Part shown: positions 24,608-59,519 of the stretch, piece after piece
Layout: each line of letters starts with the position of its first letter
Numbering within the stretch: the first letter of the stretch is position 1
DNA from: Flaccisagitta enflata
Lineage: Eukaryota
DNA: 64,000 nt
NCBI GenBank assembly: GCA_965153355.1
Contig: OZ231126.1
Coordinates: forward strand, 3,968,001 to 4,032,000
Reading direction: 5' to 3'
Translations under genes and position numbers: made by a program
Notes under the pieces: model-generated
Seen by the model: the letters and a program-made list of their open reading frames with translations, nothing else
The model's database searches: none
Told to the model about the DNA's origin: nothing

Positions 24608-27600
24608 GTGGGCACGCCGTATTGGATGGCTCCCGAAGTGGTGACGCGGAAGCAGTACGGACCCAAAGTGGACATCTGGTCTCTCGGCATCATGGCCATT
24701 GAAATGATCGAGGGTAAGTGAGACGACTACCCGTATTAATAGGGGGGGGTGGGGTGATGTGGGCCATTTGCGAACATTTTTTCAGATTTTTTTCATACAC
24801 TTAATATTTGAAATTCTGAACTATGCTTGCGATGTGGCATTTTTGCATGGCTATTAGCCCACCTGGAAAGAAATTTTGTGAGGGGCCCCTAGGGGCCCCT
24901 TTTTTAAAAAAGGGGGGTGGCCCACATTGCCCCACCATGTGGGCCACCTTGGTTTTTTAAAAAAATGGAGCCTGTAAGCCCCCATAATCAATTTGTCAAG
25001 GGTCAAAACAACATTTTCCAGTACAATATTTGATAAATGGTATCTGCTGCGGTAGTGCACATTAATATTGTAATGTTAACATGTACCGGTTTAATTATAT
25101 CCGTCATGCCAATAAATGTGATTGAGTAGCATCATAACGGGTGTTCAAATAAACAGTGTAGTTATTTACTGGATAATAAACATTAAATAATATTTTAAAT
25201 GAATAAAAAAATATCAATCAATATCAAAAAGTATTTTATGGCATGGTAAAATAATTTTATCAAGATTATATATTCAAATTAAATCAATTCAATCTAAAAC
25301 ATATTTTTTACAATCATATATAATAACACCTATAATAAAAGATTAGCTTTCTTTGTTATAACTACTACTGTAATTTTTTAAAAATCATTTCTTAATTAAA
25401 AATCTGTTTCATCATAATGAAATATCAAAAAATATTCTATATTATACACTATGTTAAATACAAGATTTTTATTAGAACACCCGTTATATAATTTTCAGAT
25501 AAAAAAATAAGGGCATTTGAGGGAGTTTCATATCCAGAGAGTCATTTATTAATGATTTATAAATAACATCAGGTGTCCCTGATGCCAAAATTGAATCTCC
25601 TGTGGCGTTGTGAGTTGAAAGTCAACAGTGGCCCACATTGCCCCTTTAGTTCAAGTGGTAATTTGGATACGAAAATCATAGATGGGTTCATCCATATTCC
25701 TGCTGCTACTTCTTTTATGATTCTATTTTCAATTTCAAGAAAAAAAATTTTGGCGAAATTAATATTTTTGCCGTTATGAAAAGTTTTGCCGCACAAGTAA
25801 AAAAGTCACTTCACAAATCGGCCAAAATGATCCTGCGTTAAGCTGCGCTGCGCCTGCAGCGGCTGCAGCAGCTGCAGCGTACTGTTACCATGGCAACTCT
25901 CTTACCCACTGTAACTAGCAGGATCATTGGTAAGGTTGAACTATTGACAGTCAGTTGATGAGCATGTCACAAAGTTGATGATGTCGATCAAGTGGCCCAC
26001 ATTGCCCCTGGCCCAAATTACCCCACCCCCCCTATACACTTTTTTTTTTTTATAAGAGACAAGATTTTTAAACTCAGCCTGGATGTTCTTAAATTTTTTG
26101 CTGTTGTGAGGCTCAAATTCTCTTAAATTGTTCTTATTTTTGCGACGCGTGAAATATGGAAAATAATGTATAAATACACTATTTATATGGAAAATAATGT
26201 ATAAATACACTATTTCGTAGTGTTCTATGTATCTTCAATTGAAAACTTGTTACTTACTATAAAACTTGAAATATCTTGTCCAATTTGACAAACAAAACCA
26301 AAAAAAGTGTTTTTCTGAAAAATTTATAAATTTTTAAAAAAAGTTTTAGGATTGTCAGATAGTTTATCAAGAGACTCAAAAAAAAAATTTTCTAAAAAAT
26401 TTCCAAAAGTTAATCTCAGCCTGGGCATTCTCTTATTTTGTTCTTAAAATTTTGGCAAATCTTAGCCTCATGTCTCTTATAAACTGGTCTCTTATAAAAT
26501 AAAAAAAGTGTATACGTGTATGCGCGGCGCGCGTCAGGTTGATTTGTGCTTAGTGCAACATTTCGTGTTTTGTATTGCTCGACAGCTCGTAAACGTTAAC
26601 CCCGCTGGCTGATCCATCCTACACGATTGGATGGCCCTACCTCAGCATAGCCTAGCCTTGCGGTGCTGCAACTGCTTCAACAGTTGATACTCACACTGTC
26701 TGTGTGAACCATTAGGGCCATATAAGGGCTACCCAGCTCCGCACACCTCGACCGGATTTGTCGTTGCTCCGACATTTGTCTTGGGATGTCAATGTGTTTA
26801 GCAAAAGCGCGTAAATTCTTTTCAGCCTTATTGCCAACTCTGCATCCCGACATGAATCTGCCCTCCCAATCACGCGCGCTTTCGTGTCTAACCAACGCGA
26901 TGAGTGCGCCTGAGGGAGAGGGCGATCGTGGAATGAACAGTCTTCTCTCCATTAGAACAGGAGAACCGAGTCTACAATTCCTTGAACAAAACTCGTACCT
27001 TGGAAGGTAAAACTGTCTTTCAAGGGAATAATCTACATTTATATGCTCACTACCTCATTTTCTCTCTTTTCTCATCCCTTCTCCCTCTTTCACCCTTTCT
27101 CTCACCACATTTCTTTTCCAGCACTACCCTTTCCCATCTTTTGCTTCCCATCTTCTTACCTCTCCCATCTTCTTGCCTCTCCCATCTTCTTGCCTCTCCC
27201 ATCTTCTTGCCTCTCCCATCTTCTTGCCTCTCCCATCTTCTTGCCTCACCCACCTTCTTGCCTCACCCATCCTCTTGCCTTTCCCATCTTCTTGCCTTTC
27301 CCATCTTCTTGCCTTTCCCATCTTCTTGCCTTTCCCATCTTCTCGCCTCTCCCATCTTCTCGCCTCTCCCATCTTCTCGCCTCTCCCATCTTCTCGCCTC
27401 TCCCATCTTCTCGCCTCTCCCGTCTTCTCGCCTCTCCCGTCTTCTCGCCTCTCCCGTCTTCTCGCCTCTCCCGTCTTCTCGCCTCTCCCATCTTCTCGCC
27501 TCTCCCATCTTCTCGCCTCTCCCGTCTTCTCGCCTCTCCCGTCTTCTCGCCTCTCCCGTCTTCTCGCCTCTCCCGTCTTCTCGCCTCTCCCGTCTTCTCG

Positions 27601-58600: not shown

Positions 58601-59519
58601 ATGATTGTTCTTATTTTTTTCCACATCTGAGCCTCAATGTTCTTATAAACAAGGTTCTTAGTCAAAGAAAAGAGTGTAGACAAACTAGGAACACTGAACA
58701 GCATCATTCTCTTTTGATCATATGAAAGCAAATGGCTTACCGGTTCTGGGATCGAATCCGACGTGGACTGTGTGTTCAAAGTTGGTGGGTGGCGAAATAA
58801 CAGGCTTGTCCGGCTGACAACCAGACATGGAATGGGGATATCATCCCGGCAGCAGAAGAGCAAAGGTTTGACAAAGAAGTGGAAAGAGAGGTGAGGAAAT
58901 GGGGAGGAATGAATAAGTAGGGGACAAAGTGAGAGAGAGGGGTGAGGAATAGGAAGGAGAGTGAAGAAAAGATAGCAGAAAGGGGTGCGAAAATTAAGGG
59001 ACGACAAAGAGAACAGATTAATTTCAATTGACCAAGCATTAACCCACTCATTAATCCTCGGATTAAAGAGTGCAATAAAATTTTTGTACCGTTAACTAAA
59101 TTCTTCTTTTCCCAGCTTTTACAAGTCAAACACGGCTCGATAGATAACACGATACTTCAACCCAGTTTCCTACTTGCCTCCAGGGCCTAAATTCTGTCTG
59201 CAATTACACCGTGTCAAAAAGAGAGAGAAAATACTAAGTGAACGGTTTTGTTCTGGTCTTTTACCTCTTTCTTTTCCCCTCTTTTGATTTTGGGGGTTTT
59301 GGGTTTCTTATCGGGTTCCCGAGGCAGCGGTTTTTCAGCCAGTCCTCCTCCGTGGGCTGACAGGGTCGTCCCGACACCCCCGTGATGAAGATGATGATGA
59401 GGAAGGGTCCCCGTGGGCCCTCCTCCCCCTCCATGCAGTCCGTCTGAAGGTCGACTGCTCGTATGACGGACCGGCGGCGCGGGCGGAGTCTCACCCTCGC
59501 CGTCGTAGTCCGAAGACAT
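49628..59519 (-). CDS. PAK: Group I p21-activated kinase, 5' half (Nck-type PxxP motif, CRIB/PBD, PIX site, kinase subdomains I-VII)
   Basis: Exons 59265-59519, 58741-58813, 57973-58127, 56794-57055, 55888-55983, 55426-55590, 52797-53051, 52003-52100, 51489-51578, 50202-50332, 49628-49751 (568 codons). Motifs [93 protein letters not shown] followed by gtaaat. Confidence 0.96.
53085..53345. repeat. ~43-bp degenerate minisatellite
   Basis: Recurring ggtgtgat..tgttagaatgttggtcttagggcctgaggagt units. Confidence 0.75.
54053..54229. mobile_element. Tc1/mariner (Tigger-like) MITE, TA TSD
   Basis: TA-cagttgaaccccgctctaacgga ... tccgttagagcggggtttaactg-TA. Confidence 0.85.
57148..57792. mobile_element. 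Foldback MITE with ~260-bp TIRs, TA flanks
   Basis: ctagcttgtacc...ttcaatattcc is mirrored by ggaatattgaa...ggtacaagctag with high identity. Confidence 0.85.

What the first reader, a model, noticed from the sequence alone, without database searches (positions are those of the whole stretch)
24608..59519. One PAK kinase gene split mid-activation-loop into two convergent halves on opposite strands
Seen: the minus-strand half ends ...[14 protein letters not shown] at a phase-0 donor (49628). The plus-strand half starts at a phase-0 acceptor with [12 protein letters not shown] (24608). Joined, they give one intact ~690-aa group I PAK with no overlap, gap or stop. I found no same-strand continuation for either half, and EHD plus another gene lie between them. 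As assembled, cis-splicing cannot make this kinase. Inference: the most likely cause is a mis-oriented segment next to the N gap and noisy satellite at 45572-48541, or an inversion allele. However, there is no matching gap on the left side. The alternative is obligatory trans-splicing of exons from opposite strands, as established for Drosophila mod(mdg4). Same-orientation HINE ends near both dangling introns (17380-17449 and 48470-48541) would be complementary between the two transcripts, but these repeats are common.
Basis: partly seen in the sequence, partly recalled or inferred. Interest (0 to 1): 0.9.

Follow-up and report, generated by a model that had tools for sequence, protein, structure and literature searches.

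The report
PAK gene split by flipped segment
An intact p21-activated kinase gene appears cut in two on opposite strands because a 25-kb stretch bounded by two mirror-image (CT)n/(GA)n microsatellites sits in the reverse orientation, most likely an assembly error and not exotic RNA trans-splicing.

Summary
Fourteen GT-AG exons give one 690-aa group I PAK with no internal stop. Exons 1-11 lie on the minus strand (59519->49628) and exons 12-14 on the plus strand (24608->31277). The break falls between Pfam Pkinase profile positions 157 and 158.

New here: each dangling half-intron holds a long perfect dinucleotide run. (CT)n at 23550-23636 lies 971 nt before the acceptor. (GA)n at 48769-48856 lies 771 nt after the donor. 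The two are inverted copies of each other. Flipping the 25,132 bp between them gives a collinear gene with a 1,830-nt intron 11, within the range of the other introns (297-3,281 nt). The only N gap and the 135-bp satellite lie inside this segment, not at its ends.

A GCN1 gene in the same window is cut off at both ends, so the local assembly looks unreliable.

The two half-introns share no long complementary sequence of the kind that drives eri-6/7 trans-splicing.

No reads or whole genome could be consulted, so a real inversion allele (~15%) or trans-splicing (~9%) is not excluded.

Best reading (~65%): orientation error at inverted microsatellites.

The parts
49628..59519 (-). PAK exons 1-11 (aa 1-568): E1 59519-59265, E2 58813-58741, E3 58127-57973, E4 57055-56794, E5 55983-55888, E6 55590-55426, E7 53051-52797, E8 52100-52003, E9 51578-51489, E10 50332-50202, E11 49751-49628
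   Evidence: tblastn of P0001. Scripted model with GT-AG at every boundary. PBD domain in E2/E3 and Pkinase in E11.
24608..31277 (+). PAK exons 12-14 (aa 569-690 plus stop): E12 24608-24713, E13 27995-28158, E14 31179-31277
23550..23636 (+). Perfect (CT)n run of 87 bp, 971 nt upstream of the exon 12 acceptor. Proposed left breakpoint.
48769..48856 (+). (GA)n run (80 bp perfect, extended to 48856 by TRF), 771 nt downstream of the exon 11 donor. It is the inverted copy of the (CT)n run (97.7% over 87 nt). Proposed right breakpoint.
23637..48768 (.). 25,132-bp segment whose reversal makes PAK collinear, with an intron 11 of 1,830 nt
   Evidence: arithmetic; other introns 297-3,281 nt
45572..45581 (.). 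The only N run (10 N). It lies inside the segment.
45592..48541 (.). 135-bp satellite that starts 11 nt after the gap
20564..23370 (.). Two arrays of a 29-bp satellite (20564-21518 and 22282-23370) left of the (CT)n run
37355..40683 (+). Complete-looking EHD gene inside the segment
   Evidence: Pfam EHD_N, Dynamin_N, DUF5600 and EH
9164..15899 (-). GCN1 fragment. Only residues about 1799-2381 of 2671 are present. Both flanks are missing from the window.
17379..17450 (+). Repeat tail, a direct copy of 48471-48542 (82%). This is the longest stretch that would be complementary between the two pre-mRNAs.

Best explanation
This is one ordinary, functional 14-exon group I PAK gene. In the real chromosome, exon 11 is probably followed about 1.83 kb later, on the same strand, by exon 12, with a (TC)n microsatellite in the middle of that intron. 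A second (CT)n/(GA)n run of similar length lies about 25 kb away in the inverted orientation. A segment bounded by inverted copies of the same simple repeat can be laid down in either orientation with identical joins at both repeats. The segment was also not assembled in one piece, because the N gap at 45572 lies inside it. The assembly took the wrong orientation for 23637-48768. That put exons 12-14, EHD and the satellite on the opposite strand. Shown here: the exon model, the inverted microsatellite pair, its distances from the two splice sites, the restored intron length, the position of the gap, and the truncated GCN1. Inferred: that the orientation in the assembly is an error and not a true allele.
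For: (1) All 14 exons are present once, are intact and use GT-AG. The joined CDS is 690 aa without a stop and 92% identical (584 of 636 aligned residues) to a related species' protein, P0001, which reads straight through the junction; P0001 is a 636-aa ORF on a 3.5-kb contig, so it is probably a transcript. (2) In a comparison of the two half-introns, the strongest match in either orientation is the (GA)n/(CT)n pair, 87 nt at 97.7%. The runs lie 771 nt from the donor and 971 nt from the acceptor. (3) Reversing the 25,132 bp between them gives an intron of 1,830 nt. The other 12 introns are 297-3,281 nt. (4) A rough estimate of the chance that two random sites each have such a run within 1-1.5 kb in inverted orientation is 0.002-0.02. 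The estimate is post hoc. (5) The only N run lies inside the segment, and the sequence right of it starts within a satellite. The two pieces are therefore held in place only by the microsatellite joins and a scaffold join. (6) Independent sign of local trouble: of GCN1, only residues about 1799-2381 of 2671 are in the window. Of 1,028 HSPs from 150 GCN1 relatives, 4 fall outside 9100-15950. One of these only extends the first exon, and three are weak (E 0.04-0.09). (7) There are no long complementary repeats that could bring two pre-mRNAs together.
Against: Both microsatellites are embedded in gapless sequence, so a scaffolding flip of a whole contig does not by itself explain the layout. The error would have to be a wrong pairing of flanks at the repeats. 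An 80-87 bp repeat is easily spanned by long reads, so if these contigs come from long reads such an error is unusual. The perfect runs are 87 and 80 bp, not identical, so they are not simply one collapsed graph node used twice. Reversing the segment does not repair GCN1, which needs a separate cause. No read, Hi-C or second-assembly evidence was available.
Confidence: 0.65

Rival explanations
1. There is a real inversion allele without rescue. Recombination or template switching between the inverted (CT)n/(GA)n runs truly inverted 25 kb on the sequenced haplotype and broke PAK. The animal carries a collinear, working copy on the other haplotype.
For: The joins at both microsatellites are gapless. 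The inverted repeats are the expected substrate. The exons are undecayed, as expected for a recent or heterozygous event.
Against: 80-87 bp of simple repeat is short for homologous recombination (general knowledge). It requires that the assembler happened to pick a gene-breaking haplotype. The truncated GCN1 nearby points to assembly problems instead.
Confidence: 0.15
2. The arrangement is real and is rescued by trans-splicing. Two convergent pre-mRNAs are made, and exon 11 is spliced in trans to exon 12, as in C. elegans eri-6/7 after the inversion of eri-6.
For: The donor and acceptor are intact, canonical and both in phase 0. Every exon is conserved. Precedent: in eri-6/7 an inversion is compensated by trans-splicing (passages of PMC11414722). 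In mod(mdg4), 9 isoforms join exons on opposite strands (passages of PMC4667647).
Against: In eri-6/7 the pre-mRNAs are brought together by direct repeats of about 930 bp. Here the only direct repeats between the half-introns are a 72-nt tail at 82% identity, which is common in the window, and a (GA)12 run. Both microsatellites would be (UC)n in RNA and so are not complementary. No promoter or first exon for a 3' transcript was identified. Such trans-splicing is very rare. A full-text search for trans-splicing + opposite strand + p21-activated kinase gave 1 paper, whose title and abstract start are about the C. elegans Integrator complex, not a trans-spliced PAK.
Confidence: 0.09
3. This is a broken duplicate. 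The window lies in a repeat-rich region that collects gene fragments, and an intact PAK (and GCN1) lies elsewhere in the genome.
For: The GCN1 fragment lacks both ends. There are partial tandem copies of PAK exon pieces at 50433-50474, 28318-28371 and 31480-31851.
Against: The two PAK halves are exactly complementary, with no overlap, no missing residue, no stop and no frameshift. That fits one break in one gene, not independent fragments. The rest of the genome could not be searched.
Confidence: 0.04

Closest known systems
Orientation ambiguity of a segment flanked by inverted repeats (a classical assembly error)
   Same: Inverted copies of one repeat lie at both ends. Reversal restores a normal gene. 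An unresolved gap lies inside the segment.
   Different: The repeats are only 80-87 bp microsatellites, and both joins are gapless. No read evidence was seen.
C. elegans eri-6/7: inversion of the 5' exons compensated by trans-splicing (passages of PMC11414722)
   Same: One ancestral gene has its two parts on opposite strands. Relatives have the collinear form.
   Different: eri-6/7 has direct repeats of about 930 bp flanking the inverted exons, which make the pre-mRNAs complementary. Here no such repeat exists, and here the 3' part plus a neighbouring gene is inverted.
Drosophila mod(mdg4) trans-splicing (passages of PMC4667647)
   Same: Exons on opposite strands would be joined at ordinary splice sites.
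   Different: mod(mdg4) has common 5' exons and many alternative 3' modules that add a variable domain. Here a single 3' module completes a kinase domain cut in its activation segment.
Group I p21-activated kinases (PAK1-3)
   Same: PBD/CRIB domain plus a C-terminal kinase domain. The best solved-structure matches for exon 11 are PAK3 and PAK1, E about 9e-21.
   Different: None in the protein. Only the genomic layout is odd.

Membership tests
Group I PAK | N-terminal p21-binding (PBD/CRIB) domain | tested here: met
   Pfam PBD on the ORFs holding exon 2 (E 6e-10) and exon 3 (E 4.5e-13)
Group I PAK | C-terminal Ser/Thr kinase domain closest to PAK1-3 | tested here: met
   Pkinase on exons 11, 12 and 13. 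PAK3/PAK1 rank above PAK4-7 in the PDB search (E 9e-21 vs about 1e-12).
Group I PAK | Complete, uninterrupted coding sequence | tested here: met
   690 aa, no internal stop, 584 of 636 aligned residues identical to P0001. This holds only after joining exons from both strands.
Segment mis-oriented between inverted repeats | Inverted copies of one repeat at both ends of the segment | tested here: met
   (CT)n 23550-23636 vs (GA)n 48769-48856, 97.7% over 87 nt
Segment mis-oriented between inverted repeats | Reversal restores a collinear gene with a normal intron | tested here: met
   Intron 11 would be 1,830 nt. The others are 297-3,281 nt.
Segment mis-oriented between inverted repeats | Reads or a second assembly show the other orientation | not testable with these tools
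   No whole genome is held.
eri-6/7-type trans-splicing after inversion | Two parts of one ancestral gene on opposite strands | tested here: met
   (as assembled)
eri-6/7-type trans-splicing after inversion | Long direct repeats that make the two pre-mRNAs complementary | tested here: not met
   The longest direct repeat between the half-introns is 72 nt at 82%, a common repeat tail.
eri-6/7-type trans-splicing after inversion | Junction-spanning mRNA from a genome that has only the inverted DNA arrangement | not testable with these tools
   No RNA or DNA reads of this organism were available.
mod(mdg4)-type trans-splicing | Common 5' exons joined to several alternative 3' modules | tested here: not met
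   Only one set of exons 12-14. The extra copies of exon 14 are partial tandem remnants.

The most novel reading that the evidence does not exclude
The inverted arrangement is the true and only arrangement in this animal. A conserved, probably essential signalling kinase is made by trans-splicing two convergent pre-mRNAs across a microsatellite-mediated 25-kb inversion, with the join directly after the activation-loop threonine. This would be a second eri-6/7-like case, in a core metazoan gene and without long pairing repeats.
Probability: 0.09. Interest if true: 0.85.

Novelty: not a real feature. Interest (0 to 1): 0.3.

Why it matters
If the layout is an artefact, it is a useful flag. Gene annotation of this assembly will report two truncated PAK models and a truncated GCN1, and (CT)n/(GA)n pairs may mark other flipped segments. 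If the layout is real, it is either a gene-breaking inversion allele mediated by simple repeats or a rare case of inversion rescued by trans-splicing. One genomic PCR and one RT-PCR separate the three readings.

Tried and rejected
Whole-genome search for a second PAK or the rest of GCN1: no genome is held for this window.

It was not repeated, so no reads were laid.

Earlier notes of this scan: none by place or by sequence.

Related genomic loci in metagenome contigs: of 581 matched stretches, 317 encode a relative and 80 were kept. I examined 6 of the 80. Four carry the kinase part of the gene as one uninterrupted match (L003, L005, L006, L008). Two (L011, L071) show the gene split into several pieces. 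L071 has no intron at this position (residues 370-538 lie in one exon). None shows the arrangement in a close relative.

A flip ending at the gap would put the whole satellite of 3 kb or more, plus an undefined left part, into the intron.

Similarity of the last 190 nt before the gap to the satellite: by eye the last 40 nt or so resemble a unit, but blastn-short found no match to the array. Not used.

Microsatellite flanks as a clue to the true pairing: both pairings give plausible pyrimidine-rich flanks. Undecided.

Identical repeat length as a sign of one collapsed node: not met, 87 vs 80 bp perfect.

Literature: a search on 'HINE' gave nothing relevant. A search on trans-splicing + opposite strand + p21-activated kinase gave 1 paper, judged unrelated from its title and the start of its abstract.

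A protein search with ORFs that cross the microsatellites was considered and dropped. The flanks are 31 aa or shorter, and contigs built from short words (as I recall Logan's contigs are) would not cross an 87-bp perfect repeat.

Supplementary files of papers were not consulted.

Full report
**What is in the sequence**

The window is eukaryotic DNA with one run of N, 45572-45581, and many tandem arrays.

On the minus strand an exon ends ...AAAAGAACCACCATG|gtaaat at 49628. On the plus strand an exon begins ...tgtttag|GTGGGCACG at 24608.

A search with the first coding exon found 2 proteins among 393 candidates. They are P0001 (636 aa) and P0002 (618 aa). Both are full-length PAKs on contigs of about 3.5 kb, so they are probably transcripts of related species. 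Both read ...SKRTTMVGTPYW... without a break.

tblastn of P0001 against the window puts residues 1-514 on the minus strand (59519 down to 49628) and 515-636 on the plus strand (24608, 27995 and 31179). Each exon occurs once.

A scripted model of 14 exons has GT-AG at all 13 boundaries and compatible phases. It is 2,073 nt, or 690 aa, with no internal stop. Of 636 aligned residues, 584 are identical to P0001; for P0002 the figure is 529 of 618.

Pfam finds PBD in exons 2-3. It matches Pkinase profile positions 110-157 in the exon 11 ORF and 158-194 in exon 12, so the two halves abut exactly. The best solved-structure matches of exon 11 are PAK3 and PAK1 (E about 9e-21), ahead of PAK4-7.

This is an intact group I PAK whose 3' third lies on the other strand, with EHD between the halves.

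**Where the breakpoints are**

I compared the donor-side sequence (45582-49627) with the acceptor-side sequence (15900-24607). The strongest match in either orientation is a (GA)n run at 48769-48856 against a (CT)n run at 23550-23636, 87 nt at 97.7%.
- The perfect runs are 80 and 87 bp.
- They lie 771 nt downstream of the exon 11 donor and 971 nt upstream of the exon 12 acceptor.
- Reversing the 25,132 bp between them (23637-48768) gives a collinear gene with an intron 11 of 1,830 nt.
- The ten introns of the 5' half are 297-2,374 nt, and the two of the 3' half are 3,281 and 3,020 nt.
- (GA)/(CT) runs are common here: 9 of at least 24 bp and 4 of at least 80 bp. A rough, post hoc estimate of the chance that two sites each have such a run within 1-1.5 kb in inverted orientation is 0.002-0.02.

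The N gap and the 135-bp satellite, which starts 11 nt after the gap, lie inside this segment and not at its edge.

**Why I read this as an orientation error**

A segment bounded by inverted copies of the same simple repeat can be placed in either orientation with identical sequence at both joins. Here the segment was also not assembled in one piece. Its two parts meet only at a 10-N join, and the right part starts within a satellite. The layout seen is gapless joins at both microsatellites and a leftover gap in the middle. That is what a wrong choice between the two equivalent solutions would leave.

A second conserved gene in the window is also incomplete.
- HEAT-repeat exons on the minus strand from 15899 to 9164 match GCN1 (Pfam HEAT_GCN1; positions about 1807-2297 of a 2898-aa PDB chain).
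- I used 150 GCN1 relatives from a full-library search that found 845 proteins at E <= 0.001, of which the best 150 are listed.
- Only residues about 1799-2381 of a 2671-aa relative are found.
- Of 1,028 HSPs, 4 fall outside 9100-15950. One only extends the first exon, and three are weak (E 0.04-0.09).
- A sensitive search for the neighbouring 300 residues on each side gave only noise.
- The exons that are present are intact.

Reversing the PAK segment does not repair GCN1. GCN1 therefore needs its own explanation, but it shows that gene continuity in this stretch cannot be trusted.

**Against this reading**

Both microsatellites lie in gapless sequence. An 80-87 bp repeat is trivial for long reads. 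The two runs are not the same length. I could not see any reads. A real inversion on the sequenced haplotype therefore stays open.

**Trans-splicing**

The precedents are real.
- In C. elegans N2, eri-6 and eri-7 lie in opposite directions and are trans-spliced. The inversion is polymorphic, and direct repeats of about 930 bp flanking eri-6 facilitate the reaction (passages of PMC11414722).
- In Drosophila mod(mdg4), nine isoforms join exons on opposite strands, with common 5' exons and many alternative 3' modules (passages of PMC4667647).

Here the pairing element is missing. Direct DNA repeats, which would make the two RNAs complementary, amount to a 72-nt tail at 82% and a (GA)12 run. The same tail occurs at seven places outside the satellite array, on both strands. 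The two microsatellites would both be (UC)n in RNA. There is a single 3' module, not a set of alternatives.

A full-text search for trans-splicing + opposite strand + p21-activated kinase found one paper. Its title and the start of its abstract concern the C. elegans Integrator complex, not a trans-spliced PAK.

I put trans-splicing at about 9%, a real unrescued inversion allele at about 15%, a broken duplicate at about 4%, and the orientation error at about 65%.

**What remains open**

Everything rests on sequence logic. One genomic PCR from exon 11 to exon 12, PCRs across the two microsatellites, and one RT-PCR across the junction would settle it.

Relatives' genomic arrangement could not be checked. 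The metagenome scan kept 80 loci, of which I examined 6. Four carry the kinase part of the gene as one uninterrupted match, and none shows the arrangement in a close relative. One, L071, is genomic-looking and has no intron at this position.

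Noticed in passing
window 9164-15899 (-): GCN1 gene fragment. Eleven intact exons cover only residues about 1799-2381 of 2671. The N-terminal 1,800 or so residues and the C-terminal 290 or so are nowhere in the window, although the flanks (3.9-9.1 kb and 15.9-24.6 kb) hold only repeats and transposon-like ORFs.
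   Followed up: partly
window 50433-50474 (-); 28140-28382 (+); 31292-32223 (+): Partial tandem copies of PAK exon pieces. They are the start of exon 10 ([14 protein letters not shown]), the end of exon 13 with its donor (101-bp unit), and three or four remnants of the last exon (304-bp and 118-bp units) downstream of the true stop.
   Followed up: no
window 3-3911 (+): 3' part of a MyTH4-FERM type gene (Pfam MyTH4 at 3-413) that runs off the left edge and seems to end near 3911.
   Followed up: no
window 42702-44129 (+): Two long Ser/Pro-rich ORFs in one frame, separated by a single stop and containing a (CT)60 run. There is no Pfam match, and the strand is pyrimidine-rich, so the open frame may be chance.
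   Followed up: partly
window 57205-57446 and 57493-57734: 242-nt inverted repeat (88% complementary, 46 nt apart) inside PAK intron 3. It looks like a small foldback (MITE-like) element. A similar one lies at 17983-18572.
   Followed up: no
window 27128-27830 (+): Very regular 17-bp tandem array (41.6 copies, 96% matches, no indels) in PAK intron 12, ending about 165 nt before exon 13.
   Followed up: no
window 7192-7948 (-): Cys-rich (CXC-like) and adjacent ORFs without a Pfam match. They are probably transposon remnants, in the gap where the GCN1 3' exons would be expected.
   Followed up: no
window 3966-4019, 17379-17449, 35541-35615, 54716-54752, 56303-56365, 56662-56729, 63617-63690: Copies, on both strands, of a repeat tail ((GGAC)n followed by ...CTTATAGAGATGCGAGGACGC...). 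The 135-bp satellite at 45592-48541 appears to be built from this tail.
   Followed up: partly
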